This document shows positions 33,601 through 53,667 of a DNA stretch of 64,000 bases, piece by piece (positions within the stretch are counted from its first letter, which is position 1; the number at the start of each line of letters is the position of its first letter). A model generated the notes under the pieces. That model was not told where the DNA came from, made no database searches, and was given only the letters and a program-made list of their open reading frames with translations. Location: assembly GCA_026395995.1 (NCBI GenBank), contig JAPLXQ010000010.1, positions 69,296 to 133,295 on the forward strand, written 5' to 3'. A program made the position numbers and the translations under genes. This DNA is from Candidatus Nomurabacteria bacterium (GTDB lineage Bacteria > Patescibacteriota > Minisyncoccia > Phycocordibacterales > UBA9973).

Positions 33601-33717
33601 GAATGGGGTACGTTTTCCACAGGTAGTATTGTTATAATTTAAACCATGTTATAATTAACCTATTAAAAATAAGTCGAAATTATTTTATTAATTATTAGTT
33701 TAAGTTTAAAAAAATTT

Positions 33718-34169: not shown

Positions 34170-34207
34170 TAGTACTTTTATAGTATAAAAATACTATAAT
34201 ATTTTTT

Positions 34208-34254
34208 CAAAAACCACCTTCGGGTGGTTTTTGTTTTGTGTAACATGCTATAAT
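34208..34254 (+). promoter_or_regulatory. repeated terminator-promoter unit (AAAAACCACCttcgGGTGGTTTTTGTTTT ... TGCTATAAT); further copies at 34834..34878 and 35463..35510
   Basis: Three near-identical units, each between consecutive pilin genes. Hairpin plus T-run followed by an extended -10. Confidence 0.6.
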
Positions 34255-34292
34255 AGTACTATTATTAAAGTAATTAAAAATTAACATTTTAT

Positions 34293-34809: not shown

Positions 34810-34914
34810 AAGATTTTTACATAATCACAAAACAAAAACCACCTTCGGGTGGTTTTTGTTTTGTGTACTTGATATAATGGTTCTATTATTAAAGTAATTT
34901 AGAAAAGATATTTT

Positions 34915-35445: not shown

Positions 35446-35543
35446 TTACTTTTAATCTCTCAAAAACCACCTAAATAGGTGGTTTTTGTTTTGTGTAGAT
35501 ATGCTATAATTATAATGTTTATTAATATAATTTTTAAAATTAA

Positions 35544-36332
35544 ATGATTCTTACTATTACAATACTTTTCTTTCTTTTTGGTGCTATTATAGGCAGTTTT
35601 TTGAACGTCGTAATTTACCGTTTTAATACTGGTAAAACATTTGGTGGACGTAGTATGTGTATGGCTTGCAGTAAAAGTCTTTCTTGGTATGAGCTTGTAC
35701 CTGTTTTTAGTTTTTTAATTCAAAAAGGGAAGTGTCGTAATTGTAAAGCTAAAATTTCTATTCAATACCCGTTGGTCGAAGTTTTGACTGGTTTTGTTTT
35801 TGCAGCTATTTTCTTAAAATATCAGCTTTTGTTTTGGCTTAATACTGTCGACTTCACAATAACTTTGGCTTATTATGCGACACTATTTTCTTTGTTGATT
35901 GTGATTGCTGTCTATGATGTTCGTCATAAAATAATTCCAGATATTTTAGCTTTTGTTTTTGGTTTAATTTCTTTTATTGGAATTTTCTTTTTCTTGAATG
36001 GTAATTTTTACCCACACCTTCCAGCTCTTTTAGAATATTTGTCTGGTTTAATTTTGGCTTTACCATTTGCTTTCTTTTGGCTTGTCTCTCGTGGACGATG
36101 GATGGGGCTCGGTGATGCTAAGCTATCTCTCGGACTCGGATGGATGCTCGGTCTATCTCTTGGTCTTTCTGGTCTAGTCTTAGCTTTTTGGCTTGGAGCT
36201 ATTCTGGGTATTGGACTTTTGATTTTTTCTAAAAAACATAATATAAAAAGTGAAATTCCATTTGCACCATTTTTGATTATTGGTACATTTTTGACTTTCA
36301 TTTTTGAAATGAATTTCTTCCCGTTTTATTAA
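35544..36332 (+). CDS. pilD: prepilin peptidase / N-methyltransferase PilD (A24 family)
   Basis: Cys4 motif CMACSKS ... CRNC and catalytic Asp regions VYDVRHKIIPD and GLGDAKL. Confidence 0.8.
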   Translation: MILTITILFFLFGAIIGSFLNVVIYRFNTGKTFGGRSMCMACSKSLSWYELVPVFSFLIQKGKCRNCKAKISIQYPLVEVLTGFVFAAIFLKYQLLFWLNTVDFTITLAYYATLFSLLIVIAVYDVRHKIIPDILAFVFGLISFIGIFFFLNGNFYPHLPALLEYLSGLILALPFAFFWLVSRGRWMGLGDAKLSLGLGWMLGLSLGLSGLVLAFWLGAILGIGLLIFSKKHNIKSEIPFAPFLIIGTFLTFIFEMNFFPFY

Positions 36333-36340
36333 TTTAAAAT

Positions 36341-37084
36341 ATGGTAAATTTTTTAAAAAAAATAAAGAATAATTTATTTCACCCTTTTATTAAAAAGGGT
36401 AGTAGTCAATCTGGAATGACATATATAGAGCTAATCGTAGTCCTTACTATTTTTGGAATTATGTCTACTGTGTTGCTTTTTAAGTACGGCACATTTAATG
36501 CTCAGATTGATTTACAAAATTTATCTCAAGATATTGCCTTGCAAATAGTTTCTGCTCAAAAATCTGCTTTATCAGGTAAGTTGCCTGACATTGGTGGAGC
36601 TGGCTATGACTTAGTAAATCCTACTTCATTTCCAAATTGGAGACCTGCTTATGGTGTTTATTTTAATTCAAATCCAGCTACTGTCGCTAGTACTATTGCT
36701 AATCCAGATAACAAAAAAATTATTTCTTTTGTTGATACAAATAATGTGAAATATTACCAAGAAGGATGTAATGATTTGAATAGACCTGGTGAGACATCAG
36801 ATCAGTGTATTGATGTAATAAATATTCAAAAAGGAGATTATGTTAGTAATATTTGTACAAAGCAGAATATTTCTGATGCTGACTGCGTTAGACATGAATC
36901 TGTTTCCATTACTTTTACTCGTCCTGATTCTAGTGCTTTTATTGTCACAGAAACAAATCCTGATTTAGCAGACCTTTCTATAAACCAAGCTGCTGTGGTT
37001 ATTATTACTATTTCTTCAGAAAATGATAATACTTTAATTAAACAAATCACTATCGACGCCTCTGGTCGTATTTCAGTAAGTTAA
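36341..37084 (+). CDS. minor pilin / pseudopilin
   Basis: GMTYIELIVVLTIFGIMS prepilin N-terminus. Confidence 0.55.
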   Translation: MVNFLKKIKNNLFHPFIKKGSSQSGMTYIELIVVLTIFGIMSTVLLFKYGTFNAQIDLQNLSQDIALQIVSAQKSALSGKLPDIGGAGYDLVNPTSFPNWRPAYGVYFNSNPATVASTIANPDNKKIISFVDTNNVKYYQEGCNDLNRPGETSDQCIDVINIQKGDYVSNICTKQNISDADCVRHESVSITFTRPDSSAFIVTETNPDLADLSINQAAVVIITISSENDNTLIKQITIDASGRISVS

Positions 37085-37085
37085 T

Positions 37086-37757
37086 ATGCAAAAAATTATT
37101 AATAAAAAAGAATCAGGTTTTACTATAATTGAAGTGATGATTTCAGTCGCACTTTTTACGACTATTATTATTGTCGGTATTGGTGCTTTGATAAATGCTG
37201 GTAATTTGCATAATAAATCTTCAAAAGTCAGATCAATCCTAGATAACTTATCTTTTGTGATGGAAGATATGTCTCGTAATTTACGAACAGGTGATACTTA
37301 TTTGTGTACCAGTGACGTAGAAGCTGGTCCTGATTGTTCTGATGGAAAGCAAATTATTTTTAATAATAATACCGCTGGAGTAGCTGGTGAAAAATGGTTA
37401 TATGCTTTTACTGATTCATCTATGTACACAGGAAGTGTCAATATTATTAAAGCTACTTCTACAGACTTACAGACATTTCCAGTAATGTCTGTCGATAATA
37501 TTATTCAACTAAACCCAGACGAAATTAGACTAGACTCTTCTTCTGGTTTTACTGTAGTCGGAGCTAATACAGATGATACATTTCAACCATATGTAATAAT
37601 TAGACTTTCAGGTAAAATTATTTATAAGAATAATGAAATACCTTTTAAATTAGAGACTTCGGTATCACAAAGGTTTAATGATATTGTTTCACCTCCACCA
37701 CCAGTAGCTGGTGCACTTGGTGCAGGTCCCGTCGTGCCAGCGGTCACAATTCCTTAA
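37086..37757 (+). CDS. minor pilin / pseudopilin
   Basis: SGFTIIEVMISVALFTTIIIVG prepilin N-terminus. Confidence 0.55.
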   Translation: MQKIINKKESGFTIIEVMISVALFTTIIIVGIGALINAGNLHNKSSKVRSILDNLSFVMEDMSRNLRTGDTYLCTSDVEAGPDCSDGKQIIFNNNTAGVAGEKWLYAFTDSSMYTGSVNIIKATSTDLQTFPVMSVDNIIQLNPDEIRLDSSSGFTVVGANTDDTFQPYVIIRLSGKIIYKNNEIPFKLETSVSQRFNDIVSPPPPVAGALGAGPVVPAVTIP

Positions 37758-38334
37758 ATATATTATGATTAATTTTTTATTAAAAACAAATAAGAATTCA
37801 AAAGGTTTCACTTTGGTTGAAACACTTGTCGCTATTTCAATATTTACTATTTCTATTTTAGGAATGATTTCAATTTTATCTAATGGTATTACTGATACAA
37901 ATTATGCTAAAGATAAGATTATTGCTACTTATTTAGCTCAAGAGGGGGTTGAATTTGTTCGTAATGTTCGAGATGATAGTGTTTTGTATAATACTACAAA
38001 TTCAGGCTGGAGTGATTTTTTAAATAGGACAACAAATTGTGTTCCAAGTGGCACAGATCAAATTTTGGGTTGTCGTATGAATGATGATTTATCAACTACT
38101 GATAATTTTGCTGCATGTGCAGATTTTTCTAGTTGTGAGTTGTATATAAATACTGGGACTAATAAATATAGCTCTGATCCTCAAAGCGGTGACGATTCTG
38201 GTTTTAGTCGTATTATTACATTGAACACTGGTGTCAGTCCTAATAAAGTTACTATAACATCAAATGTTTCTTGGATGCAAAAATCAGGAAGACAAAGTGT
38301 TTCATTTACCGAAGATTTATTTAATTTATATTAA
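37757..38334 (+). CDS. minor pilin / pseudopilin
   Basis: KGFTLVETLVAISIFTISILG prepilin N-terminus. Start moved to the ATG overlapping the stop of the previous gene. Confidence 0.5.
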
Positions 38335-42704: not shown

Positions 42705-43349
42705 ATGCAACCAAATATCATTGATACAGTCACTTCTAAGCCAGTATTTAATCCAACTTATATAAACTTAGAATATGTCTTTAATAAAATATATGAGTTT
42801 TTTCATGCTATTTATAATGCTTTGTTTGCTGCTAATAATACAAGCACTAGTAGTAGCCAGGGTGTTTCTAATTTTCAAGGAATTTTAATTTTATTTTGTA
42901 TTTTTTTTATTATTATAATAATTTACTGCACGGTTAGAATTTTTGAAATTAGAAAACAAGAGCAAGAATACATGGATAATGAATTTGCTGTCTATGCAAA
43001 AAAACATGAAGAAAAGGATAAATACATTCCTTTAAATAATCAACGTTGGGAAAATGTTTTGAAATATTTACACTCTCAAAGTCCGAGTGATTGGCGTGTA
43101 GCTATTATTGAAGCAGATTTGATTCTTGAAGATATGACAAAAGATATTGGTTTGGAAGGGTTGAATTTAGGGGATCGTTTAAAATCAGCCAATCGAGACA
43201 AATTTAAAACACTCAATGATGCCTGGGAAGCACATCTTGTACGTAATAGAATTGCTCATGATGGAACAAAATTTGAAATCAATCAACGTGAAGCACAAAG
43301 AGTTGTTTTTCTTTATGAAAAAGTCTTTAACGAGTTTCGTATTATATAG
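42705..43349 (+). CDS. hypothetical membrane protein occupying the position where gatB would be expected
   Basis: One strong TM helix (ILILFCIFFIIIIIYCTV). No GatB motifs. Confidence 0.35.
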   Translation: MQPNIIDTVTSKPVFNPTYINLEYVFNKIYEFFHAIYNALFAANNTSTSSSQGVSNFQGILILFCIFFIIIIIYCTVRIFEIRKQEQEYMDNEFAVYAKKHEEKDKYIPLNNQRWENVLKYLHSQSPSDWRVAIIEADLILEDMTKDIGLEGLNLGDRLKSANRDKFKTLNDAWEAHLVRNRIAHDGTKFEINQREAQRVVFLYEKVFNEFRII

Positions 43350-44255: not shown

Positions 44256-44261
44256 TTGCCT

Positions 44262-45173
44262 ATGCTATTTTCAGCAATTTTTACAATATTAGGTCTTTCA
44301 GTTTTTGAGGCAATTTCATCTATAGATAATGCGGTTATAAATGCCGAAGTGCTTTCGACGATGGGGAATAAGGCTCGTAAATGGTTCCTTCTTTGGGGCT
44401 TTTTAATAGCTGTTATTGTGGTCCGTGGAGTCTTGCCATTTATTATCGTTTGGGGCTTTAATCCTTCATTATCAGCCTCACAGGTCCTATCTGCTGCTTG
44501 GTCATCTGATCCAATAGTCCATGAGTCAATAGTGAAATCAGCCCCGATACTCCTTGTAGCTGGTGGAATATTTCTTTTATTTTTATTTTTACATTGGTTA
44601 TTCTTAGAAGATAAACATTTTGGAATACCAAAGACTGAAAAATTCTTTATGAAAAATGGTCTTTGGTTTTATACAATTGTTTCCATCCTTCTCACATTTA
44701 TTTGTTGGTTTGCTTTAAAACAAAATCCTATGATGGCCTTCGGGGCGGTGATAGGTTCGACTTTGTTTTTTATCACTCACGGCTTCAAACAAAATGCTGA
44801 AGCTGAAGAAAAAAGTTTATCAACATCAGCTCGTAGTGATTTGAGTAAATTATTTTTCTTGGAAATTATTGATGCTACATTCTCTATTGATTCTGTGCTC
44901 GGAGCTTTCGCTTTTACATTATCTGTGCCACTTATATTGTTAGGTAATGGACTTGGTGCATATTTAGTTCGTAAGCTTACAATAGGTAATATAGAAAATA
45001 TTAAAAAATACGTCTTATTAAAAAACGGAGCAATGTACTCTATTTTGGTCCTCGGTATTATTATGATTTTGCAAAGTTTTGGTCATGAAATTCCTGAATA
45101 TGTTTCTCCATTACTTACAATTATGATTATTACTTTTTTCTTCTTAAAATCTAAAAAACTTCTAAAATCTTAA
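44262..45173 (+). CDS. TerC/DUF475-like integral membrane protein
   Basis: Repeated SIDNAVINAEVL / FSIDSVLGAF motifs in a multi-TM protein. The ORF-track start at 44256 is a TTG overlapping the -10 box, so the ATG at 44262 is preferred. Confidence 0.5.
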   Translation: MLFSAIFTILGLSVFEAISSIDNAVINAEVLSTMGNKARKWFLLWGFLIAVIVVRGVLPFIIVWGFNPSLSASQVLSAAWSSDPIVHESIVKSAPILLVAGGIFLLFLFLHWLFLEDKHFGIPKTEKFFMKNGLWFYTIVSILLTFICWFALKQNPMMAFGAVIGSTLFFITHGFKQNAEAEEKSLSTSARSDLSKLFFLEIIDATFSIDSVLGAFAFTLSVPLILLGNGLGAYLVRKLTIGNIENIKKYVLLKNGAMYSILVLGIIMILQSFGHEIPEYVSPLLTIMIITFFFLKSKKLLKS

Positions 45174-45288
45174 GTATCTTTTAATTGTCTGGACAATTTT
45201 TGTTAATTTCGCTAGAATTGTAAGCTGTTAGGGTTAATAGCCATATTAGCCTTATATTATAAAAATATGATAATGTATTTGTGTATAT

Positions 45289-45822
45289 ATGAATCTTTTT
45301 CTAAAAATATTTAAGACTTCAAAAAATTTAATTTCTGTAAAAGATATTAATTCTGAAAAAACAGAAATAATTGAAGTTGGTGAAAAAATAAATAAAAAAA
45401 TAAAAAAACTATTTAATGGTTCTTTGGCTATTCGGCAAGTAGATGCTGGTTCAGATAATGCTTGTGAACAAGAACTTGTTGCGCTATCAAATGCTTTTTA
45501 TGACGTTGAGCGTTTTGGTATACATTTTGTAGCTTCTCCAAGACATGCCGATATGCTCATGGTTACTGGTCCTGTAACACGTAATATGGCTGAAGCCCTA
45601 AAAAGGGCATATGAAGCGACACCAGAACCAAAAATAATAATTGCTGTCGGAGATGATGCAATAAATGGTGGTATATATAAAGATTCTTATGCTGTTGTTG
45701 GTGGTGTTGATTCTGTGATACCTGTTCATTATCAAATTCCTGGTGATCCACCAAGTCCAAAAGTTATTTTATTTCATCTTTTAAATATTCTTGAAATTAT
45801 TGAGAATAAAAAATTAATTTAA
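45289..45822 (+). CDS. NuoB / group-4 [NiFe]-hydrogenase small-subunit homologue lacking three of the four [4Fe-4S] Cys ligands
   Basis: SPRHADMLMVTGPVTRNMAEAL ... EPKIIIAVGDDAINGG ... PGDPPSP. CC(A/V)E becomes ACEQE, GxCxxxGG becomes GDDAINGG, PGCPP becomes PGDPP. Confidence 0.7.
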   Translation: MNLFLKIFKTSKNLISVKDINSEKTEIIEVGEKINKKIKKLFNGSLAIRQVDAGSDNACEQELVALSNAFYDVERFGIHFVASPRHADMLMVTGPVTRNMAEALKRAYEATPEPKIIIAVGDDAINGGIYKDSYAVVGGVDSVIPVHYQIPGDPPSPKVILFHLLNILEIIENKKLI

Positions 45823-45827
45823 ATATT

Positions 45828-47876
45828 ATGATAAATTTTATTACATCAGAATTTAGTTTTGAGATTTTGTTTTTACTTTTTAGTGTTGGGGCTATTGGTT
45901 CTCTGTTTTTAAATAAAAACGACAAATTGGCAAACTTCTGGAGTAGTTTCTTTTCAATCAGTAGCTCTATTTGGGGTTTGATAATATCTATCTGTGCTAT
46001 TTCTTTTGGACAAGATCTTCTTTTTTCTGTAGGTCATTCAGTCTTCTCTGTTTTTTCAGTGTCTTTTCATGTTGATAAATTATCTGCTTTTTTTATCTTT
46101 ATAATTTCTTTAATTTCTTTGTTTTGTTCTATTTATGGTATTGGTTATGTAAAGCATTTTTATAAAAAATATAATATTGGTGCTTTAGGGTTCTTTTATA
46201 ATACTTTTATTTTAGGAATGTTACTCGTCGTCTCATCTTCCAATGGAATATTTTTCCTTTTAGCTTGGGAATTGATGTCTCTAGCTTCTTATTTCCTTGT
46301 TGTTTACGATAGAAATGATGAAGAAAATATAAAAGCTGGTTTTTTATATTTTATAATGACTCATGTCGGTACTGCTTTTATTATATTGGCATTATTATTG
46401 TTGTATAAATTTACAGGCTCATTTGATTTTGATATTGTTAAATCAAACATGGGATTAGTTCCTCTATATATTAAAAATCTTGTTTTTATATTCTCAATAA
46501 TTGGTTTTGGCACAAAAGCAGGTATTGTACCTTTCCATGTTTGGCTTCCTAGCGCTCACCCAGCAGCACCTTCACATGTTTCAGCTTTAATGTCTGGGGT
46601 GATGATCAAGACAGGTATTTTTATGATGATCAAAATTTTTCTTGATATTCTTCAGCCAGTACCTGTTTGGTGGGGGCTTACTATTTTAGTTATTGGTTCT
46701 GTCTCTTCTTTGCTTGGAGTTTTATATGCACTTACAGAACATGATTTAAAAAGACTTTTGGCTTATCATAGTATTGAAAATATTGGTATTATTTTGCTTG
46801 GTCTTGGTAGTGCTCTTACTTTTACATCTCTCGGTTTACCAGCATTAGCATTACTTGGTCTTATTGCTGCACTTTTTCACACATTAAACCATGCCACATT
46901 TAAATCATTACTTTTCCTTAGTGCTGGTTCAGTAATTAGTCAAACACACACTAGAAATATGGAAGAATTTGGTGGTCTTATAAAATACATGCCACAGACA
47001 GCCTTCTTCTTTTTAATTGGTTCAATGGCGATATCAGCACTTCCTCCTTTTAATGGATTCTTTAGTGAATGGTTAACTTTTCAATCACTTTTCCAAGGTA
47101 TAATGTCCTTAGATTTTTATTCTAAAGGAATTTTTATTTTTGCAGTTGGTTCATTAGCCTTTACTGGGGGATTAGCTTTAGCTTGTTTCGTAAAAGCATT
47201 TGGTGCTACATTTTTAGCTCGTCCTAGAAGTGAAGAGGTTAAACATGCTAAAGAATCTTCCTTCTCTTTACTTTTTGGTATGGGAGCTTTAGCTTTATTG
47301 TCTTTAGTATTTGGTATTTTTTCTGGATACTTGGGATCTTTTTTTGAAAAGATAGCTAAGAGTTTTACTTTTGCTCAAAATGTTTTTTATCCATCTTTCT
47401 CTACTGACTCTATGTTAAAAGTCGGTAACAGTTTCTCTTCTGTTTCAGCCCCAGCTATTTTTATATTTTTTGCTATTATCTTTTTAATTGTTATTTTTGT
47501 GACTAAGTTTTTGATTAATAGAAATCAAAAAGTAACTATAAATTCTACTTGGGATTGTGGTACAGATTTGACTCCACGTATGGAAATTACTGCGACAGGA
47601 TTTTCTAGATCTATTATTGTTATTTTAAAAGGAATACTTCGACCAAATATTAAAAAAGAAATAGTATATAATGATGCCGGTAGTAAATATCTACCAAAAT
47701 CACGTTTTGTTATTTTGAGTATTAAAGATATATATCAAGCATATTTTTACACACCCTTACATAAAATTACAACTTTCCTTTCTTTGCAGATAAAAAAGAT
47801 ACAAAATGGAAATGTAAATTCTTATATTTTGTATATCTTTTTTGCATTAATAGTCACTTTATTTTTAGCGATATAA
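45828..47876 (+). CDS. NuoL/MrpA/HyfB-like antiporter-type membrane subunit
   Basis: LLAWELMSLASYFLV and VPFHVWLPSAHPAAPSHVSALMSGVMIKTG motifs. 682 aa. Confidence 0.7.
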   Translation: MINFITSEFSFEILFLLFSVGAIGSLFLNKNDKLANFWSSFFSISSSIWGLIISICAISFGQDLLFSVGHSVFSVFSVSFHVDKLSAFFIFIISLISLFCSIYGIGYVKHFYKKYNIGALGFFYNTFILGMLLVVSSSNGIFFLLAWELMSLASYFLVVYDRNDEENIKAGFLYFIMTHVGTAFIILALLLLYKFTGSFDFDIVKSNMGLVPLYIKNLVFIFSIIGFGTKAGIVPFHVWLPSAHPAAPSHVSALMSGVMIKTGIFMMIKIFLDILQPVPVWWGLTILVIGSVSSLLGVLYALTEHDLKRLLAYHSIENIGIILLGLGSALTFTSLGLPALALLGLIAALFHTLNHATFKSLLFLSAGSVISQTHTRNMEEFGGLIKYMPQTAFFFLIGSMAISALPPFNGFFSEWLTFQSLFQGIMSLDFYSKGIFIFAVGSLAFTGGLALACFVKAFGATFLARPRSEEVKHAKESSFSLLFGMGALALLSLVFGIFSGYLGSFFEKIAKSFTFAQNVFYPSFSTDSMLKVGNSFSSVSAPAIFIFFAIIFLIVIFVTKFLINRNQKVTINSTWDCGTDLTPRMEITATGFSRSIIVILKGILRPNIKKEIVYNDAGSKYLPKSRFVILSIKDIYQAYFYTPLHKITTFLSLQIKKIQNGNVNSYILYIFFALIVTLFLAI

Positions 47877-47878
47877 AT

Positions 47879-48805
47879 ATGAATATTTTAATTTGGATAA
47901 TTCAAATAGTTTTTATACCAATAATGTCACCATTGTGTGTCGGTATTATTAGAAAAATAAAAGCCAAACTTCAAAATAGAAAAGGGGCTAGTATTTTTCA
48001 ACCATATAATGATTTATGGAAACTCTTTAATAAAGATGAAGTTATCAGTAAAGATGCTTCTTGGGTTTTTAGATATGCCCCTTTTGTTATTTTTTCAGTG
48101 ACTATCTTTGTCGGTATGAGTGTTCCAATTTTTATGTCTTTTGTAAACAACACTTTTACTAGTGACATATTGGTAATTATTTATATGCTTGCATTGGGAA
48201 CATTTTTCTTGGCTCTTTCTGGTTTAGATACAGGTGGAGCTTTTGGTGGTTTTGGTTCAAGTCGTGAAATGACTATGTCTGCTTTAGCAGAAGGTGGTTT
48301 TATCTTCTCTCTTTTAACAATTTCTTTCATAGCTGGTACTACCAATCTATTGGCTATTTCTAATGTTGGAATTCTTCAACATGGACATTTGCTACTTTCA
48401 TCTATATTGGCTTTTATATCATTCTTCATAATATTATTAGCAGAAAATACAAGATATCCTTTTGATAATCCGTCTACTCACTTGGAATTAACTATGATTC
48501 ATGAAGCTATGATTTTAGAATATTCTGGAAAAAGATTAGCTCTTATTGAATGGGCATCTTCAAATAAACTTTTAATTTTTATTTCTTTGGGCTCCAGTTT
48601 GTTTTTCCCTTGGGGTATAGCTGGGGCACTTAGTTTAAGTGCGTTACTTTTCGGTTTATTTATTTTTTGTTTAAAGGTATTTATTTTTTGTTTAGCAATA
48701 GCTGTATTGGAATCAAGTATAGCAAAATTGCGATTCTTTAAATTACCTGATTTATTGTTGATAGCCTTTATTCTTAATGTGATAGCAATTATTTTAATTT
48801 TTTAA
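47879..48805 (+). CDS. NuoH/HyfC/EchB-like membrane subunit
   Basis: ENTRYPFDNPSTHLELTMIHEAMILEYSG conserved loop. Confidence 0.7.
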   Translation: MNILIWIIQIVFIPIMSPLCVGIIRKIKAKLQNRKGASIFQPYNDLWKLFNKDEVISKDASWVFRYAPFVIFSVTIFVGMSVPIFMSFVNNTFTSDILVIIYMLALGTFFLALSGLDTGGAFGGFGSSREMTMSALAEGGFIFSLLTISFIAGTTNLLAISNVGILQHGHLLLSSILAFISFFIILLAENTRYPFDNPSTHLELTMIHEAMILEYSGKRLALIEWASSNKLLIFISLGSSLFFPWGIAGALSLSALLFGLFIFCLKVFIFCLAIAVLESSIAKLRFFKLPDLLLIAFILNVIAIILIF

Positions 48806-48807
48806 TT

Positions 48808-49455
48808 ATGAATATTTTATTTTATACAATTTTGCCGGAGATAGTTTTATTAAGTATTATTTCTTTACATTTAGTAAAGAAAAATAGTGAGATGGTCTTT
48901 CTTTATGGTTTTCAATCAATCGCAATTGTTTTAATGTTGTTTTGTTCGTTTTTAACGACAGGTAAACTTTCTTTGTTATTGGTTACGGTTGTTGTATTAC
49001 TTGCCAAGGTAATATTAGCACCATTATTTTTTAATAAATTAATTTTAAAACACAAGCTGGTTTTTTCTGTAAAAAAGTATGTTAATACATCTTTTAGTTT
49101 GGTAATTATAGCTATTTTAATTATCACAGCTTATTCAGATAAATTTACTTCATTAACAAATATTATTCCAGCAAATCACGCATCGCTATCTCTAGCATTT
49201 TCTGCAATGTTATTGTCTTTGTTTTTGATTGTGAATAGTAGGGGAGCATTGTCTCAAATTGTAGCCATTCTTTCTTTGGAAAATAGTATTGTCGCTTTTG
49301 CTGTTTTTGCAGAACTAGAACAATCTGCTGGTTTGCAAATAGGTATAGTTTTTGATATCTTTGTTTGGATGATAGTAGCAACAATGTTTGTTTCAATGAT
49401 TCAAAAGCATTTCGGGTCGATTGACGTTACTTCAATGAAAAACCTAAAAGATTAA
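48808..49455 (+). CDS. HyfE-like small membrane subunit
   Basis: About 215-aa polytopic protein in the HyfE position. Confidence 0.45.
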   Translation: MNILFYTILPEIVLLSIISLHLVKKNSEMVFLYGFQSIAIVLMLFCSFLTTGKLSLLLVTVVVLLAKVILAPLFFNKLILKHKLVFSVKKYVNTSFSLVIIAILIITAYSDKFTSLTNIIPANHASLSLAFSAMLLSLFLIVNSRGALSQIVAILSLENSIVAFAVFAELEQSAGLQIGIVFDIFVWMIVATMFVSMIQKHFGSIDVTSMKNLKD

Positions 49456-49459
49456 ATTT

Positions 49460-50902
49460 ATGGAATTATTATTTATTTTTACATTTTTATTACTTGCTTC
49501 ACTTATTGGCCTCTTTACTAAAAAGAGATTATTTATTGAGTTTGTTTCTGTTTTTGCTTCTATTTTTGCTTTGTTTGGGTCAATCAACGTTGCTATGAAG
49601 GTAGTAGCTCTTGGTTCTTATAGTCCATTTAGTTTTTTATATGTTGAATCTTTTGGAGCAGTTTTACTACTTATTATTTCTTTGATTGGTTTGTCAACGA
49701 CTGTTTATTCTATACAATATCTTCGTCAAGAAAGTGCTAAAAATATTATTGGACCTGCTAGAGTTAGACAGTATTTTGTCTTGTTGAATTTATTTATTCT
49801 TTTTATGTTTTTAGCAACAACAGTAAATAGTCCAATTTTTAGTTGGATTTTTATTGAGGCTACAACATTATCGACTGTTTTTCTTATTAGTTTTTATAAT
49901 AAATCATCTTCAGTTGAGGCTGCTTGGAAATATCTAGTAGTGAACTCTGTTGGATTATTATTTGGTTTCTTTGGAACACTTTTATATTTTACTTCTTTAC
50001 ATTCCGTTGATAATGGTTCAATCGTTAGTTGGAATGGTCTTTTGAATGGCGCAACAAGCCTCGATCCTGTTATTGCCAAAATAGCTTTCATATTCGTCTT
50101 GATTGGTTATGGTGCTAAAGTGGGTCTTGCACCTATGCATACATGGAAGCCAGATGCTTATAGTAAGGCCCCAACACCGCTAGGAGCATTGTTTTCAGGT
50201 GCTTTGTTGCCGGTGGCTTTTGTAACTATTTTAAAATTTAAAACAATAACTGATACTGTTGTTGGTTTGTCATTTAGTCAAAATCTACTTATTTTATTTG
50301 GAACACTATCTGTTTTTATCTCAGCCTTTATTATTTTTTCTTCTAGAAATTATAAAAGACTATTAGCTTATTCTGGTATAGAAAATGCTGGAATTATGGC
50401 TCTCGGTTTTGGTTTTGGTGGGTTGGGTATTTTTGCTGGAACCTTACATATGATTTATCATTCTTTGATTAAATCTGCTCTTTTCTTTTGCTCAGGTAAT
50501 TTTTTATTGAAATATGGTTCAGCAAAAATAAAAAATATTAGAGGTGCTATAAATGTCCTTCCTTTCACTAGTGTTGTTTTTGTTGTTGGATTTTTGGCCT
50601 TGATTGGTATGCCACCATTTGGTGTATTTTTTACAAAGTTAACAATTCTTTCTGCTGGAATAAAAAATCATCAATTGTTTTCAATAGTTCTTATTTTCCT
50701 AGTCTCTCTTTTGTTTATTGGTTTTTTGAAACATGTGACTGCTATGGTTTTTGGAAAAAAACCAGAGGACATGTCTATTAAAAAAGAGAGTGTTTGGTTG
50801 ATCATTCCACCATTAGTATTGATTGGTGTTGTTATTTGTTTAAGTTTTTATATACCACCATTTTTATATACCTTATTTAATAATATAGTTTTACATTACT
50901 AA
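49460..50902 (+). CDS. NuoN/NuoM/HyfF-like antiporter-type membrane subunit
   Basis: GLAPMHTWKPDAYSKAPTPLGALFSGALL motif. Confidence 0.7.
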   Translation: MELLFIFTFLLLASLIGLFTKKRLFIEFVSVFASIFALFGSINVAMKVVALGSYSPFSFLYVESFGAVLLLIISLIGLSTTVYSIQYLRQESAKNIIGPARVRQYFVLLNLFILFMFLATTVNSPIFSWIFIEATTLSTVFLISFYNKSSSVEAAWKYLVVNSVGLLFGFFGTLLYFTSLHSVDNGSIVSWNGLLNGATSLDPVIAKIAFIFVLIGYGAKVGLAPMHTWKPDAYSKAPTPLGALFSGALLPVAFVTILKFKTITDTVVGLSFSQNLLILFGTLSVFISAFIIFSSRNYKRLLAYSGIENAGIMALGFGFGGLGIFAGTLHMIYHSLIKSALFFCSGNFLLKYGSAKIKNIRGAINVLPFTSVVFVVGFLALIGMPPFGVFFTKLTILSAGIKNHQLFSIVLIFLVSLLFIGFLKHVTAMVFGKKPEDMSIKKESVWLIIPPLVLIGVVICLSFYIPPFLYTLFNNIVLHY

Positions 50903-50903
50903 T

Positions 50904-52478
50904 ATGAATAAAGAAATAATAAAAAATTATATACCAGAAAATACAAAAGTAGATTTTGTTGGAAATATTGCTCTTGTAAAAGTTGAAGCAGTAAATATTT
51001 TAGAAATTGCTAATGATTTATATAATCATAAAAATCTTCCGCTTAAACTCGTTACAGCGACAGATGAAAGGTTTGAAAATGGATGTTTTAAAATTTGGTA
51101 TATTTTTGGAATTCCAAAAGAAAATATTTTTATAGCCTTATTTATTGAACTTAAGAATATTGAGGAATTCCCATCAATAGTCTCAGTTGTTTTTGAGGCT
51201 GGTAACTATGAAAGAAAAATAAAAACTTTTTTCGGTCTTACTCCAGCAGGGGCTTTTGATACAAGGCCAATAATTTTACATGAAAATTGGCCAATTGATG
51301 TTTTTCCACTTCGAAAAGATTTTAATTTACAAACAAAAGTAAAACAATCAACTGGAACATATGAATTTCAAAGAGTTGATGGTGAGGGTATTTATGAGAT
51401 TCCTGTCGGTCCAATTCATGCTGGTATTATAGAACCTGGTCATTTTCGATTTAGTGTCGCTGGAGAAGAAATAATGCTCTTAGAAGCAAGACTTGGTTTT
51501 GTGCATAAAAGTATAGAAAAAATATTTGAATCAGAAATATCAATAGATGAAAAAATAAAACTTTCTGAAAAAATTTCAGGAGATAGTTCTTTCTCTTATT
51601 CTGCTGCTTTTTGTCGATCGATAGAAAATTTAGCTGGAATTGAAGTTTCTAAAAGAGCTGAGTATTTGCGTGCTATTTATTCTGAATTAGAAAGATTAAC
51701 AAATCATTTTGGCGATGTTGGTGCTATGATGCTAGATACAGGGTTTAATTTTGGTGGAGCAAACGGTTCTCGTTTACGTGAGATAGTTATGCAACTAAAT
51801 GAAAGACTTACTGGTAGTAGGTTTTTGCGTGGAGTAAATGTCGTAGGTGGTGTGACTAAAGATATAGATTTAAATGAAAAACAAATTTTATTAAACAACC
51901 TTGAAAAGATATTTAAAGATTTTGAAGAAGTTATTGAAGTAGTAGAAAGTAAAATTTCTTTATTGAATCGTTTACGAGGAACTGGAGCTATTACTCATAC
52001 TATTGCTAAAGATTTTGGAGTGCTGGGTGTACCTGCTAGGGCTGTAGGCATTGAAAATGATACACGTTTAGATTTTCCATATAGTGTGTATCAAGAATTA
52101 GATTTTAGTAAAGCTGAAGTTCAAACTACAGGAGATGTATATGCTCGTTTCTATGTTCGAATAAAAGAAATTCGTACTTCATTTAACCTTATTGAAAAAG
52201 CCCTAATCAATTTACCAGAAGGAAAAATAAATTCATCATTAGATAAAATAGTTTTAAAGAAGAATTCTGTAGTTATTACCCTTGTGGAGGGGTGGAGAGG
52301 GGAAATAGCATATTTCATTACTACCGATTTAAATGGAAATATTAGTAGAGTTTATCCTCGTGATCCATCTTTTCTAAACTGGTCAGCCGTCGGCTGTGCT
52401 GGTCCTGGCAATGTCGTTCCAGATTTCCCACTCATAAACAAAAGCTTCAATCTTTCTTATACAGGAAATGATTTGTAA
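50904..52478 (+). CDS. fused NuoC-NuoD / hydrogenase large-subunit homologue with NiFe-binding Cys motifs replaced
   Basis: PVGPIHAGIIEPGHFRF and IENLAGIEVSKRAEYLRAIYSELERL are conserved. The L1 motif RxCGxCxxxH is ISGDSSFSY. The C-terminal DPCxxCxxH-equivalent is NKSFNLSYTGNDL. Confidence 0.7.
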   Translation: MNKEIIKNYIPENTKVDFVGNIALVKVEAVNILEIANDLYNHKNLPLKLVTATDERFENGCFKIWYIFGIPKENIFIALFIELKNIEEFPSIVSVVFEAGNYERKIKTFFGLTPAGAFDTRPIILHENWPIDVFPLRKDFNLQTKVKQSTGTYEFQRVDGEGIYEIPVGPIHAGIIEPGHFRFSVAGEEIMLLEARLGFVHKSIEKIFESEISIDEKIKLSEKISGDSSFSYSAAFCRSIENLAGIEVSKRAEYLRAIYSELERLTNHFGDVGAMMLDTGFNFGGANGSRLREIVMQLNERLTGSRFLRGVNVVGGVTKDIDLNEKQILLNNLEKIFKDFEEVIEVVESKISLLNRLRGTGAITHTIAKDFGVLGVPARAVGIENDTRLDFPYSVYQELDFSKAEVQTTGDVYARFYVRIKEIRTSFNLIEKALINLPEGKINSSLDKIVLKKNSVVITLVEGWRGEIAYFITTDLNGNISRVYPRDPSFLNWSAVGCAGPGNVVPDFPLINKSFNLSYTGNDL

Positions 52479-52496
52479 TTTTTTTTAAATAAAAAA

Positions 52497-52523
52497 ATCG
52501 CATAGTGTTTTTCACTATGCGAT
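52497..52523. terminator. bidirectional terminator
   Basis: ATCGCATAGTGtttttCACTATGCGAT flanked by A/T runs. Confidence 0.6.
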
Positions 52524-52527
52524 AATA

Positions 52528-53667
52528 TTAATTTTCTGAAATTTTACTTATAAAGGTTAATTCCTCCGGATAAACAATCGTTCCTTGTTCAAAAGTTTTT
52601 TCGAATTCTGTCGGGTCGAATTCTGTAAAAAGTCTTGTATCGTGACTTGTTACTCCTACTACGTATTCCAAATTATAATTTAATAATTCTGGAACTCTTT
52701 TTTCAATAACCTTTTTTGCTGTTTTGTAAAGAAAATGAGCACGCATTTTTTGTGCTTCATCGTTTGTGTGTTCTTTAAACAACAAACCAGCGCACATAAT
52801 GGTTACACCGTCTTTTTCATCAACTCTTCCTGATTTGATATTTTTTAAGATTATACTAGCTGCAATAGCTATACAATCATCAAGGGTTTTTAAATGACTC
52901 CTGAAAGGGCTAACAATAAGAGCTTTGTTTGGTATATGCAACCAATCAAAACCTAATCCTATACAAAGAGAAAGTTCTTTATGCTCTCTGTCTAATGCAA
53001 CTTCTTCACTTGTGGAATTTTTAATATAGTTATAGTTTCCCATAACCAATTCCATTAATGCGTTCATCACCTCATCAGAAACATCTGGAAATATCTTCAA
53101 CATTTTAAGAATTATTTCTTCTCTCGAAGAATTTAAATTTTCAAAAACATTAAAAATTTCTCCATTTTTATTGTGAAATATCAGAGACTGATTGTCTGTT
53201 TCTATACCCATCACAATAGAGTATAAAATACCCTCATTCCTCTTTTCAAGAAAAACTGATTTAAATTGGTCTCTTAGTCTCTTTGCCCATACTAAGGCTT
53301 GACCAGTATTATTATCATGTCCAGCACAGCAACGTTTCTCACTTCCTTTTGAAAAGTGGTATGTCGAAACTATTAAACAAGGTTTTTTACTTGAGCAGTG
53401 TTTAATTGTTTTTTCGATTAAGTCACTCAAATAAGAGTCTCCTAAGTCAAAAATTCCACCAAGTGTTCTATACGGTCGTAATATCCCAGTAGGAATATTG
53501 GTAAACTTTGCAATATGGACTCTTCCGTCCATACACTTGAATAGTAGTATTCTCGCAGGGTGTAACTCTTTGTAAAGCATTCTTGCGTGCTTTCTTTCAG
53601 GGCTACGGTGTTTAATGCTTTCCTCGATGTTATGACTAATCAAAAATTCAGTTGTTTTATTTGCCAT
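52528..53667 (-). CDS. hypothetical protein with a CxDGR motif and Cys/His-rich segment
   Basis: LFKCMDGRVH ... YHFSKGSEKRCCAGHD. Weak resemblance to β-carbonic-anhydrase ligand motifs, not convincing. Confidence 0.35.
   Translation of the reverse strand: MANKTTEFLISHNIEESIKHRSPERKHARMLYKELHPARILLFKCMDGRVHIAKFTNIPTGILRPYRTLGGIFDLGDSYLSDLIEKTIKHCSSKKPCLIVSTYHFSKGSEKRCCAGHDNNTGQALVWAKRLRDQFKSVFLEKRNEGILYSIVMGIETDNQSLIFHNKNGEIFNVFENLNSSREEIILKMLKIFPDVSDEVMNALMELVMGNYNYIKNSTSEEVALDREHKELSLCIGLGFDWLHIPNKALIVSPFRSHLKTLDDCIAIAASIILKNIKSGRVDEKDGVTIMCAGLLFKEHTNDEAQKMRAHFLYKTAKKVIEKRVPELLNYNLEYVVGVTSHDTRLFTEFDPTEFEKTFEQGTIVYPEELTFISKISEN

What the first reader, a model, noticed from the sequence alone, without database searches (positions are those of the whole stretch)
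45289..52478. Six-gene complex-I / group-4 [NiFe]-hydrogenase-like module in which both redox subunits have lost their cofactor ligands (Ehr-like)
Six co-directional, tightly packed genes encode NuoB-like, NuoL-like, NuoH-like, HyfE-like, NuoN-like and a fused NuoC-NuoD-like protein. The NuoB-like protein keeps the fold motifs (SPRHADMLMVTGPV, EPKIIIAVG) but replaces three of the four conserved Cys of the N2/proximal cluster (GDDAINGG for GxCxxxGG, PGDPP for PGCPP, one Cys of CC). The large-subunit-like protein keeps PVGPIHAGIIEPGHFRF and the ELERL region, but its L1 motif RxCGxCxxxH reads ISGDSSFSY and its C-terminal DPCxxCxxH equivalent reads NKSFNLSYTGNDL. No NuoI-like ferredoxin subunit is adjacent. 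This is a membrane-bound antiporter-type complex with a hydrophilic arm that cannot bind FeS or NiFe, in a fermentative, respiration-poor CPR-like genome. It matches the energy-converting-hydrogenase-related (Ehr) concept, but its function here (ion translocation driven by something other than electron transfer?) is unexplained. A CxDGR/Cys-His-rich protein (52528..53667) lies immediately downstream on the opposite strand.
Basis: partly seen in the sequence, partly recalled or inferred. Interest (0 to 1): 0.78.

Follow-up and report, generated by a model that had tools for sequence, protein, structure and literature searches.

The report
Cofactor-free Ehr (complex-I-like) membrane complex
Six tightly packed genes in a Nomurabacteria (CPR) genome encode a complex-I/hydrogenase-like membrane machine that keeps its ion-pumping parts but has lost every metal-cofactor ligand, so it cannot run on electron transfer; related copies sit next to ATP-synthase and carbonic-anhydrase genes, which gives a testable idea of what this long-orphan family does.

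Summary
The six co-directional ORFs at 45289-52478 encode EhrS, EhrA, EhrB, EhrC, EhrD and EhrL. Three of the four [4Fe-4S] Cys in the small subunit are Asp. All four [NiFe] Cys in the large subunit are Ser or Gly. The cluster and the window hold no NuoI/HycF-like gene.

The Ehr interpretation is supported. Ehr in CPR with Cys-less large subunits was already published (Jaffe 2020), and its function is still unknown.

Three results go beyond that report:
- Most Ehr complexes keep the small-subunit cluster (68 of 80 EhrS copies). The window belongs to a distinct FeS-less clade, whose replacement residues are themselves conserved.
- The ion-translocation residues of all four membrane subunits are intact.
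- F1Fo ATP-synthase genes lie next to Ehr in 9 of 22 FeS-less loci and in 0 of 109 others. Carbonic-anhydrase and SulP genes also recur beside Ehr. The window's convergent neighbour (52528-53667) is a CsoSCA-type beta-carbonic anhydrase by fold.

My best reading is a redox-independent ion-translocating module that works in the ATPase's proton circuit. It is plausibly coupled to CO2/bicarbonate conversion, as in DAB or NDH-1MS. The mechanism is inferred, not shown.

The parts
45289..45822 (+). ehrS: NuoB/HycG-like small subunit with no FeS ligands (D56, C59, D123, D153 at the four Cys positions)
   Evidence: PF01058 3.7e-26. Best PDB matches are HycG 7z0s_G (6e-32) and MbhJ 6cfw_J, with residue-level alignment. 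The ligand pattern D-C-D-D/N occurs in 118 of the 120 nearest homologues.
45828..47876 (+). ehrA: HyfB/HycC/NuoL-like antiporter-type subunit (682 aa)
   Evidence: PF00361 6e-59; NCBIfam HyfB 657 bits. Aligns to HycC 7z0s_C (5.5e-82) and MbhH. E148, K230, K261, H351, H355, K359 and E414 are conserved in at least 96% of 108 family members.
47879..48805 (+). ehrB: NuoH/HycD-like subunit (308 aa)
   Evidence: PF00146 6e-44. R129, E130, E138, E189, R192, D196, H201, E203, H208, E209, E214, E278 and R285 are conserved family-wide, including the loop motif AE..R.P.DNP.THLELTM.HE.M.LEYSG.
48808..49455 (+). ehrC: HyfE-like small membrane subunit (215 aa)
   Evidence: NCBIfam NF008556 (hydrogenase 4 membrane subunit) 2.7e-10; no Pfam hit. 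K67 and E158 are invariant in 72 family members.
49460..50902 (+). ehrD: HyfF/NuoN-like antiporter-type subunit (480 aa)
   Evidence: PF00361 2.9e-45; NCBIfam HyfF 398 bits. E133, K220, H330, H334 and K338 are conserved in 97-100%.
50904..52478 (+). ehrL: fused NuoC-NuoD/HycE-like large subunit with no [NiFe] ligands. It ends where mature HycE ends.
   Evidence: PF00329 + PF00346. HycE 7z0s_E 1.5e-69 with alignment. AF2 model pTM 0.83; best fold match is HycE, TM 0.81. The replacement motifs are conserved across about 165 loci.
52497..52523 (.). Perfect 11-bp-stem hairpin in the 49-nt spacer between the convergent ehrL and carbonic-anhydrase genes. It is a likely shared, bidirectional terminator.
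   Evidence: Terminator scan and the sequence itself. A T-run follows the stem on the - strand. Function is inferred.
52528..53667 (-). CsoSCA-type beta-carbonic anhydrase (379 aa). It is a candidate functional partner, not proven to belong to the complex.
   Evidence: C45-x-D47-x-R49, H104 and C114 are invariant in 20 homologues. AF2 pLDDT 90.5. Foldseek gives CsoSCA 9g4t/2fgy/8thm at E~1e-15, TM 0.68-0.71. Members of the same family lie beside Ehr on the P0131 contig, in L096 and in L100.

Best explanation
[quoted passage not shown] The complex has a four-subunit membrane arm: two Mrp/NuoL-type antiporter-like subunits, a NuoH-like subunit and a HyfE-like subunit. It also has a two-protein peripheral arm, made of a NuoB-like subunit and a fused NuoC-NuoD-like subunit. 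The peripheral arm keeps the hydrogenase/complex-I fold. It has none of the Cys or His ligands for [4Fe-4S] or [NiFe], so it cannot transfer electrons or make H2. All the charged residues that carry ions through complex I, MBH and FHL are retained.

**Mechanism (inferred).** The complex is a redox-independent ion (most likely proton) translocating module. It works in the chemiosmotic circuit set up by the F1Fo ATPase of an organism with no respiratory chain. Proton flux through the antiporter-like subunits would be coupled, through the conserved polar pocket that replaces the NiFe site and through the NuoH-like loop, to a non-redox reaction. The most likely reaction is directional interconversion of CO2 and bicarbonate, carried out together with a beta-carbonic anhydrase such as the CsoSCA-type enzyme encoded next to ehrL. 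This would be analogous to DabAB and to the CupA module of cyanobacterial NDH-1MS.

I put identity as a cofactor-free Ehr at about 0.95. I put 'gradient-coupled, not redox-coupled' at about 0.6. I put the specific CO2/bicarbonate coupling at about 0.3.
For: **Identity and ligand loss.**

**A distinct FeS-less clade.**
- 68 of 80 EhrS copies in species-representative loci keep all four Cys.
- Only the window's relatives lack them.
- All 27 FeS-less loci form one NJ clade, with bootstrap 67.

**Selection rather than decay.**
- EhrL is 60-66% identical and EhrS 70-81% identical across CPR phyla, Firestonebacteria and others.
- The replacement residues are themselves conserved: DCDD in 84 and DCDN in 34 of 120 homologues.
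- The SGD and NLSYSGNDL motifs are family-wide.

**Intact ion path.**

**Link to the ATP synthase.**
- atpA/G/D/C genes lie beside Ehr in 9 of 22 FeS-less loci against 0 of 109 others (Fisher p = 2e-8).
- They are directly upstream and co-directional in 7 loci, with gaps of 9-257 nt in 5 of them. These loci span both FeS-less subclades.
- The one c subunit that could be read (L093) is of the H+ type.

**Link to inorganic carbon.**
- The window neighbour is a CsoSCA-type carbonic anhydrase.
- The same family lies convergent after ehrL on the P0131 contig.
- It also occurs in ehrABCDLS-SulP-CA operon-like arrays in L096 and L100.
- PF20393 putative carbonic anhydrases lie directly after ehrL in L031 and L130.
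- SulP transporters abut Ehr in L011 and L060.
- A CsoSCA-like gene directly follows a complete atp operon in L168.

**Precedent.** DAB2 is a PMF-coupled vectorial carbonic anhydrase built on a complex-I antiporter-like subunit (PMC13144422).
Against: - No biochemical data exist for any Ehr.
- Most FeS-less loci (about 17 of 22) have no carbonic-anhydrase gene nearby.
- With only fold- or Pfam-supported carbonic anhydrases, the enrichment is modest: 3 of 22 against 2 of 109, p = 0.03.
- The 181/185-aa CSDGD...HxPCGAA neighbours in L086 and L093 resemble beta-carbonic anhydrases by motif only. hhalign gives no support.
- In the window the carbonic-anhydrase gene is convergent and separated from ehrL by a terminator-like hairpin. 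It is therefore not co-transcribed.
- A close relative has the same TruB-TerC-CA-UvrD synteny without Ehr (L169). Four more relatives have the carbonic anhydrase without Ehr. Adjacency in the window could therefore be an accident of where the cluster inserted.
- The window holds no ATP-synthase genes.
- The loci are phylogenetically non-independent, so the Fisher p-values are optimistic.
- The hypothesis does not explain why a large, highly conserved peripheral arm is retained.
Confidence: 0.4

Rival explanations
1. It is a plain secondary cation/proton antiporter, functionally Mrp-like. The complex exchanges Na+ or K+ for H+, using the proton gradient made by the F-ATPase, for pH and ion homeostasis. 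The peripheral arm is only a structural plug or regulator. The carbonic anhydrase, where present, only buffers cytoplasmic protons.
For: - There are two PF00361 Mrp/NuoL-type subunits with a full set of channel residues.
- Mrp subunits A and D are among the PDB and NCBIfam hits.
- The ATP-synthase linkage fits a gradient-conversion role.
- A CPA-type Na+/H+ exchanger lies directly downstream in L014.
Against: - Mrp needs MrpB, C, E, F and G, and has no NuoB/NuoD arm. None of those subunits is present.
- About 700 residues of peripheral arm are kept at 60-80% identity. The most invariant motifs sit at the former catalytic site. That is hard to explain for a passive plug.
- The only readable neighbouring c subunit has no Na+ motif.
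Confidence: 0.25
2. The former NiFe pocket of EhrL, possibly with the Asp-rich site of EhrS, is a new catalytic or ligand-binding site for an unknown non-redox reaction that drives or is driven by ion translocation. Candidates are a hydrolytic or (de)carboxylation step, or binding of a divalent metal. Alternatively it is a sensor that gates ion flow. No carbonic-anhydrase partner is needed.
For: - SGD[ST][ST]xxH, the C-terminal NLSYSGNDL-COOH and PVGPxHAGIIEPGHFRF are conserved across all Ehr, with or without FeS.
- D56, D122, D123 and D153 are conserved in EhrS.
- These segments have low pLDDT in the monomer model although they are the best conserved. That fits interface or active-site elements.
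Against: - No known catalytic motif is recognised by Pfam, NCBIfam or PDB sequence searches.
- In the second FeS-less subclade the EhrS positions vary (SEGD, TEGD, NEGD, TEGS). This argues against a fixed metal site.
- No substrate clue exists other than the carbonic-anhydrase and SulP neighbours.
Confidence: 0.2
3. It is still a redox enzyme. Electrons from an unlinked partner reach an acceptor in the arm through a cofactor bound by non-Cys ligands. The partner could be, for example, the formate dehydrogenase/NuoEF module proposed for FDH-Ehr, or ferredoxin.
For: - FDH-Ehr was proposed for Margulisbacteria and Saganbacteria (PMC6349859).
- Ehr subunits were more abundant in formate-grown Geobacter (PMC7894505).
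- Asp can ligate FeS clusters in some proteins (established knowledge).
Against: - Only one Cys remains at the cluster site, and most close EhrS homologues have one Cys in total.
- There is no ferredoxin-type motif and no FDH or NuoEF gene in the window.
- No FDH or NuoEF family recurs beside FeS-less loci.
- All four NiFe ligands are gone.
Confidence: 0.07
4. It is a decaying relic of a hydrogenase operon with no function.
For: All cofactor ligands are lost.
Against: - All six ORFs are intact and tightly packed.
- Thousands of homologues exist at 60-80% identity across phyla.
- The replacement residues and the channel residues are conserved.
- Synteny with the atp operon is conserved.
Confidence: 0.03

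Closest known systems
Ehr complexes (Geobacter sulfurreducens ehrABCDLS GSU0739-45; the CPR Ehr clade of Jaffe et al. 2020)
   Same: The six subunit types are the same. The large subunit lacks the L1/L2 Cys and carries the family motifs SGD.. and NLSYSGNDL. There is no HycF/NuoI-like or NuoEFG-like subunit. Function is unknown.
   Different: The window's clade has also lost the small-subunit [4Fe-4S] ligands, which 68 of 80 EhrS copies in the sampled loci keep. Its gene order is S-A-B-C-D-L rather than A-B-C-D-L-S. Only this clade is linked to atp operons.
E. coli formate hydrogenlyase / hydrogenase-4 (HycCDEG, HyfBCEFGI; PDB 7z0s), a group 4a [NiFe]-hydrogenase
   Same: These are the best sequence and fold matches for EhrS, EhrA and EhrL. 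The subunit order is hyf-like, with a HyfE-like subunit. EhrL ends at the position of the mature HycE C-terminus.
   Different: There are no NiFe ligands and no FeS ligands. There is no HycB/HycF/HyfA/HyfH ferredoxin subunit, no FdhF partner and no maturation protease site.
Pyrococcus furiosus MBH and MBX/MBS (PDB 6cfw, 6u8y)
   Same: The membrane-anchored NuoB/NuoD/NuoH/NuoL-type module is homologous. They are the second-best PDB hits.
   Different: MBH and MBS have 13-14 subunits. These include a full Mrp-like Na+ module and a NuoI-like 2x[4Fe-4S] subunit, and they keep the proximal cluster. None of this is present here.
DabAB (DAB1/DAB2) inorganic-carbon pumps and the cyanobacterial NDH-1MS CupA module
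   Same: In both, a complex-I-type antiporter-like subunit is combined with a beta-carbonic-anhydrase-like protein, giving gradient-coupled or pump-coupled one-way CO2 hydration (PMC13144422). Here, carbonic-anhydrase and SulP genes recur next to Ehr.
   Different: There is no DabA (PF10070) or CupA homologue. The carbonic anhydrases here are CsoSCA-type or PF20393-type and soluble. The complex has four membrane subunits plus a cofactor-free peripheral arm. Physical association is untested.
Mrp multisubunit cation/proton antiporters (PDB 7qru, 6z16, 7d3u)
   Same: EhrA and EhrD are homologous to MrpA and MrpD, with conserved Glu/Lys/His channel residues. Operation is redox-independent.
   Different: MrpB, C, E, F and G are absent. 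NuoH-, NuoB- and NuoCD-like subunits are present.

Membership tests
Ehr (energy-converting hydrogenase-related complex) | Cluster of NuoL-like, NuoH-like, HyfE-like, NuoN-like, large (NuoCD/HycE-like) and small (NuoB/HycG-like) subunit genes | tested here: met
   The same six genes occur in about 165 related loci.
Ehr (energy-converting hydrogenase-related complex) | Large subunit lacks the L1 (RxCGxCxxxH) and L2 (DPCxxCxxH/R) [NiFe] Cys ligands | tested here: met
   Alignment to HycE and MbhL gives S225, S228, S518 and G521. The same replacements occur family-wide.
Ehr (energy-converting hydrogenase-related complex) | Large subunit groups with Ehr sequences, not with bona fide group-4 hydrogenases | tested here: met
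   In the NJ tree of 166 EhrL-type sequences, the eight true NiFe members (CGxC/ELCYxC) cluster apart from the window's clade. This is NJ only, with bootstrap 67 for the FeS-less clade.
Ehr (energy-converting hydrogenase-related complex) | Small subunit with the four Cys of the proximal [4Fe-4S] cluster (the state in most Ehr) | tested here: not met
   The window has D56, C59, D123 and D153. 68 of 80 EhrS copies in the sampled loci are CCCC. I treat this as a variant-defining difference, not an exclusion.
Group 4 membrane-bound [NiFe]-hydrogenase | Four Cys ligands of the NiFe centre, plus the proximal [4Fe-4S] cluster and a HycF/NuoI-like subunit | tested here: not met
Respiratory complex I (Nuo/Nqo/NDH-1) | N2 cluster in NuoB; quinone-site Tyr/His in NuoD; NuoA, J, K and I (plus E, F, G) subunits | tested here: not met
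   The N2 ligands are absent. The position aligned to Nqo4 Tyr87 is Gly226. No NuoA/I/J/K/E/F/G genes are in the cluster or the window.
Mrp antiporter | Seven-subunit MrpA-G set with no peripheral arm | tested here: not met
   Only MrpA/D-type homologues are present. A peripheral arm is present.
DAB / CupA-type vectorial carbonic anhydrase | DabA (PF10070) or CupA carbonic-anhydrase-like subunit encoded with, and bound to, an antiporter-like subunit | tested here: not met
   There is no PF10070 or CupA hit. The neighbour is CsoSCA-type.
DAB / CupA-type vectorial carbonic anhydrase | Gradient-dependent, one-way CO2 hydration | not testable with these tools
   This needs complementation of carbonic-anhydrase-free E. 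coli, or transport assays.
CsoSCA-type beta-carbonic anhydrase (neighbour gene 52528-53667) | CsoSCA fold with the Cys-His-Cys zinc ligands and the Asp-Arg dyad | tested here: met
   C45, D47, R49, H104 and C114 are invariant. Foldseek to 9g4t/2fgy/8thm gives E~1e-15 and TM about 0.7. Homologues carry PF20686. Enzyme activity was not tested. The carboxysome-targeting N-terminal region and carboxysome genes were not found.

The most novel reading that the evidence does not exclude
FeS-less Ehr, and possibly Ehr in general, is a chemiosmotically coupled and redox-independent CO2/bicarbonate converter. It would work with beta-carbonic anhydrases (CsoSCA-type, PF20393-type) and, in some lineages, with SulP transporters. 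In CPR bacteria it would be wired to the F1Fo ATPase as an atp-ehr-CA module.

This would be a third independent recruitment of complex-I-type proton modules for inorganic-carbon handling, after NDH-1MS/CupA and DAB. It would give a function to an orphan family present in at least 591 species-level genomes, including nitrifiers, acetogens and methanogens. It would also help explain why respiration-less CPR bacteria keep an ATP synthase.
Probability: 0.3. Interest if true: 0.85.

Novelty: new variant of a known kind. Interest (0 to 1): 0.62.

Why it matters
Ehr complexes have been noted in genomes since 2005, and every paper I could read says their function is unknown. They occur in hundreds of lineages, including CPR, Nitrospira, ammonia-oxidising archaea, Acidobacteria, Verrucomicrobia, acetogens and methanogens.

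A clade that has dropped the last redox cofactor while conserving the arm and the ion channels is a natural experiment. It shows that this architecture can be selected for something other than electron-transfer-driven pumping. That bears on how the coupling machinery of complex I works.

The conserved links to ATP synthase, and to carbonic-anhydrase and SulP genes, turn an open question into specific experiments. For CPR biology, the result points to a second chemiosmotic device beside the ATPase in cells that lack a respiratory chain.

Tried and rejected
- **Dismissing the carbonic-anhydrase neighbour.** I first judged it incidental, because three homologues (L001-L003) lie beside UvrD without Ehr and blastp found none in 80 Ehr loci. 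I revised this after HMM and Pfam searches found carbonic-anhydrase and SulP genes beside Ehr in other loci. The caveat stands.
- **The 181/185-aa CSDGD...HxPCGAA proteins downstream of ehrL in L086 and L093.** I treated them as beta-carbonic-anhydrase-like. hhalign against both carbonic-anhydrase families and a PDB profile search gave nothing significant, so I count them only as an unexplained recurrent neighbour.
- **The FDH-Ehr model.** No FDH or NuoEF genes are in the window, and none recur near FeS-less loci.
- **A Na+ cycle.** The only readable adjacent c subunit (L093 10040-10267) has AEALG and lacks the Q...E-S/T...Y Na+ signature.
- **A NuoI-like partner.** There is no CxxCxxCxxxC motif in any window ORF. 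The rest of the genome could not be searched.
- **Rfam and tRNA scans.** Nothing relevant to the cluster was found.
- **Promoter scan.** The number of hits was no greater than expected from shuffles.
- **The original Ehr papers.** Coppi 2005 and Marreiros 2013 are not held. I could not check whether FeS-less small subunits were noted there.
- **Monomer AF2 model of EhrL.** It gives no coordinates, so the pocket geometry could not be analysed.

Full report
**1. The observation**

The region 45289-52478 holds six + strand ORFs of 177, 682, 308, 215, 480 and 524 aa, separated by 1-5 nt. Pfam and NCBIfam assign them as follows:
- NuoB/HycG-like, PF01058.
- HyfB/NuoL-like, PF00361. The HyfB model scores 657 bits, just under its cut-off of 667.
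- NuoH-like, PF00146.
- HyfE-like, NF008556.
- HyfF/NuoN-like, PF00361.
- A fused NuoC-NuoD/HycE-like protein, PF00329 + PF00346.

The best solved relatives are the E. coli formate hydrogenlyase subunits: HycG 6e-32, HycE 1.5e-69 and HycC 5.5e-82. P. furiosus MBH comes next.

- In the small subunit, CxxC becomes D56..C59, GxCxxxGG becomes GDD123AINGG, and PGCPP becomes PGD153PP.
- In the large subunit, RxCGxCxxxH becomes KIS225GDS228SFSY232, and DPCxxC becomes NLS518YTG521.

No ferredoxin-type CxxCxxCxxxC motif occurs in any ORF of the 64-kb window. The 100%-identical proteins are on a 287-kb NCBI MAG contig named Candidatus Nomurabacteria bacterium and on an independent Logan assembly. The rest of the window holds type IV pilus genes, LigA, GatA, TruB, a TerC/DUF475 protein, a UvrD-PDDEXK helicase-nuclease, PheS and GyrB. 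There are no respiratory or ATP-synthase genes.

**2. What family it is**

A scan of one genome per species found at least 591 relatives of the large subunit. They occur in CPR phyla, Firestonebacteria, Fibrobacteria, Nitrospira, ammonia-oxidising archaea, Rokubacteria, Acidobacteria, Verrucomicrobia, Firmicutes and methanogens. A metagenome scan gave a similar number.

In about 165 loci the same six genes recur in two orders. S-A-B-C-D-L is the order in the window. A-B-C-D-L-S is the Geobacter ehrABCDLS order.

The motifs that replace the NiFe ligands are conserved across the whole family. They are E[RKS][IV]SGD[ST/E][ST]xxH and PDFPLxNKSFNLSY[SA]GNDL. The protein ends three residues after the last former Cys position, which is where mature HycE ends.

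Eight loci in the same set have real CGxC and ELCYxCxDR motifs and cluster apart. So the window's protein is not inside a bona fide hydrogenase clade. This is the Ehr family as used in the literature.

Jaffe et al. 2020 already reported a monophyletic CPR Ehr clade whose large subunits lack the metal-binding Cys and 'likely cannot interact with H2' (PMC7304191). Other papers state that the function is unknown (PMC10284858, PMC10432482, PMC4378227, bioRxiv 765248). An FDH-Ehr complex was proposed for Margulisbacteria (PMC6349859). No Ehr structure is in the PDB.

**3. What is specific to this clade**

Of 80 EhrS copies in the species-representative loci, 68 keep all four Cys of the proximal [4Fe-4S] cluster. 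Only the window's nearest relatives and a second small group lack them.
- The nearest relatives are Firestonebacteria, Saccharibacteria, Daviesbacteria, Magasanikbacteria, Endomicrobiales and Thermoleophilia, with patterns DCDD, TCDD, DCGD and DCDN.
- The second group has the patterns SEGD, TEGD and NEGD.

Among the 120 nearest EhrS homologues the pattern is DCDD in 84, DCDN in 34, and other in 2. Seventy-five of the 120 have a single Cys in the whole protein. Among 150 cluster representatives at 50% identity, the Cys-less forms are a diverse minority.

In an NJ tree of EhrL, all 27 FeS-less loci form one clade. Bootstrap support is 67 of 100 on a taxon subsample, 66 for the DCDD-type subclade and 100 for the TEGD-type subclade. 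The EhrL pocket motifs are the same in FeS-less and FeS-containing Ehr.

I found no mention of the small-subunit loss in the papers I could read.

**4. Is it functional?**

Sequence conservation is high. EhrL is 60-66% identical and EhrS 70-81% identical across different phyla, and mean column identity is 72% in a 24-sequence EhrL alignment.

The window's membrane subunits carry every family-invariant charged residue:
- EhrA: E148 (TM5), K230 (TM7), K261 (TM8), H351/H355/K359 (TM11) and E414 (TM12). E414 is a Glu, as in HycC. Helix positions come from alignment to HycC and MbhH.
- EhrD: E133, K220, H330/H334/K338.
- EhrB: the dense acidic/basic loop AE..R.P.DNP.THLELTM.HE.M.LEYSG.
- EhrC: K67 and E158.

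The AF2 monomer model of EhrL has pTM 0.83. It matches HycE with TM 0.81 and E. coli NuoCD with TM about 0.75. Its low-confidence stretches are residues 124-202 and 504-524, which include the most conserved motifs. That fits interface elements, but this point is an inference.

The cluster is therefore under selection, with an intact ion path and a cofactor-free arm.

**5. Neighbourhood evidence for function**

(a) ATP synthase.
- atpA/G/D/C genes lie next to Ehr in L006, L010, L014, L031, L086, L090, L093, L105 and L130. All of these are FeS-less. None of the other loci has them: 9 of 22 against 0 of 109 with at least 1.5 kb of flank, Fisher p = 2e-8.
- In seven loci the order is atp..AGDC then ehrS, co-directional. 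The gaps are 9 nt (L086), 31 (L090), 100 (L130), 114 (L105) and 257 (L031).
- Both FeS-less subclades are represented.
- The loci are related, so the p-value overstates independence. Even so, retention of this synteny between lineages whose EhrL is only about 41% identical argues for a functional link.
- In L093 the atp operon follows ehr. Its c subunit has AEALG, an H+-type signature.

(b) Inorganic carbon.
- The window's convergent neighbour (52528-53667) belongs to a small family with invariant KCMDGR, YHFS and RGC motifs.
- Its AF2 model has pLDDT 90.5 and matches carboxysomal CsoSCA structures at E~1e-15 and TM 0.68-0.71.
- Members of this family lie convergent after ehrL on the P0131 contig.
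- They also occur in co-directional ehrABCDLS-SulP-CsoSCA-like arrays in two Nitrospira-like, FeS-containing loci, L096 and L100.
- One member lies 38 nt after a complete atpBEFHAGDC operon in L168.
- L031 and L130 carry a two-domain PF20393 'putative carbonic anhydrase' directly after ehrL, at 47.9 and 37.6 bits against a cut-off of 30. Its motifs are C[IM][ED][FY]R and HHAxCGAY.
- SulP transporters abut Ehr in L011 (25 nt after ehrL) and L060.
- Single-locus neighbours include malic enzyme (L009), PEP carboxylase (L084), a Na+/H+ exchanger (L014) and CODH/ACS (L004).

**6. Caveats to that evidence**

- With only fold- or Pfam-supported carbonic anhydrases, the enrichment in FeS-less loci is 3 of 22 against 2 of 109, p = 0.03.
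- The 181/185-aa proteins after ehrL in L086 and L093 are 29% identical to each other (E 5e-24) and carry CSDGD...HxPCGAA. They resemble beta-carbonic anhydrases by motif only. hhalign and PDB profile searches are not significant.
- In the window the carbonic-anhydrase gene is convergent and separated from ehrL by a perfect 11-bp hairpin at 52497-52523.
- L169, a relative whose carbonic anhydrase is 46% identical, has TruB...TerC/DUF475-CA-UvrD with no Ehr. The window's Ehr cluster therefore looks like an insertion between TerC and the carbonic-anhydrase gene.
- Five other family members have neither Ehr nor atp nearby.
- Canonical beta, gamma or alpha carbonic anhydrases in the flanks were not searched systematically.

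**7. Mechanism**

The following points are shown:
- There are no ligands for FeS or NiFe.
- The ion-channel residues are intact.
- The arm is under strong purifying selection.
- There is clade-specific linkage to atp operons.
- Carbonic-anhydrase and SulP neighbours recur.

The mechanism itself is inferred. I read the complex as a redox-independent proton-translocating module in the circuit of the F-ATPase. In a CPR cell without a respiratory chain, the F-ATPase probably makes the gradient by ATP hydrolysis.

The most specific reading is gradient-coupled, one-way CO2/bicarbonate conversion with a beta-carbonic anhydrase. The precedents are DabAB, recently shown by structure to be a PMF-coupled vectorial carbonic anhydrase built on a complex-I-type subunit (PMC13144422), and NDH-1MS/CupA.

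Three rivals remain. One is a Mrp-like antiporter. Another is an unknown non-redox reaction or ligand at the conserved EhrL pocket. The third, much less likely, is residual redox chemistry or decay. The direction of operation, the coupling ion and any physical contact with a carbonic anhydrase are all untested.

**8. Verdict**

The core of it, Ehr in CPR with a Cys-less large subunit, is published.

Three things appear new relative to the literature I could search:
- the FeS-less clade as a distinct, monophyletic variant;
- its operon-level association with ATP synthase;
- the association of Ehr with CsoSCA-type or putative carbonic anhydrases and SulP.

I rate the finding as a new variant of a known kind, with interest 0.62.

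Noticed in passing
window 52528-53667 (-): A CsoSCA-type (carboxysome-shell-type) beta-carbonic anhydrase sits in a CPR genome with no carboxysome genes in sight. It lacks a Pfam hit of its own. Only 20 relatives were found by the word-indexed search of 5.8 billion proteins. All catalytic residues are invariant.
   Followed up: yes
window 44256-53667 compared with L169 8981-14193: A relative has the same TruB...TerC/DUF475 - CA - UvrD-PDDEXK order but no Ehr genes, and its carbonic-anhydrase gene is in the opposite orientation. The six-gene Ehr cluster in the window therefore looks like an insertion, consistent with the patchy, HGT-like distribution reported for CPR Ehr.
   Followed up: partly
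L086 11640-12185 (-) and L093 8512-9069 (-): An uncharacterised 181/185-aa protein family has invariant CSDGD, H-x-P-C-G-A-A and C-H-V motifs. The two proteins are 29% identical (E 5e-24). In two distant FeS-less Ehr lineages the gene lies convergent, directly after ehrL. There is no Pfam, PDB or hhalign match.
   Followed up: partly
L168 3676-11122: A CsoSCA-like gene follows a complete atpBEFHAGDC operon by 38 nt, co-directional, with no Ehr. This suggests a direct link between carbonic anhydrase and ATP synthase in some CPR-like genomes.
   Followed up: no
L026, L027, L059, L067, L080, L081, L083, L099 (EhrL-type gene at about 10001-11550 in most): These close relatives of Ehr have the same gene order but intact ERICGxCxxSH and ELCYxCxDR motifs and a CCCC small subunit. 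They are presumably true group-4 hydrogenases, and include Thermincola, Desulfotomaculum and Ectobacillus funiculus. They are useful outgroups and cultivable models.
   Followed up: partly
L044 4772-19841 and L066 22-13835: Two complete Ehr clusters lie in tandem in Nitrospirota genomes, with different EhrL pocket variants (SGTSSF against SGDTTV).
   Followed up: no
flanks of FeS-containing Ehr loci (e.g. L039 4043-4405, L079 3393-4736, L137 9325-10806): ArsR-type HTH regulators (16 loci), sigma-54 response regulators (15 loci) and HAMP histidine kinases (14 loci) recur next to canonical Ehr clusters. This suggests regulated expression, and none of these occurs next to the FeS-less clade.
   Followed up: partly
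L031 6582-8180 and L130 6822-8420: In the TEGD/SEGD-type subclade the NuoH-like ORF is about 530 aa, and no separate HyfE-like gene was detected. This may be an EhrB-EhrC fusion.
   Followed up: no
window 20128-20215 (-), 21314-21403 (+), 23887-23976 (+): ARAGORN calls three tRNA-Ser genes within 4 kb. Two have anticodon GCT and one has the unusual anticodon ACT. The ACT call is not supported by Rfam at gathering score.
   Followed up: no
window 26221-38334 (+): A large type IV pilus gene cluster is present: PilM, PilO, two T2SSE ATPases, T2SSF, a prepilin peptidase and several N-methyl pilins. This is typical of episymbiotic CPR bacteria.
   Followed up: no
window 42705-43349 (+): A 214-aa ORF with one predicted hydrophobic stretch and no Pfam hit lies between gatA and tRNA-Met.
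   Followed up: no
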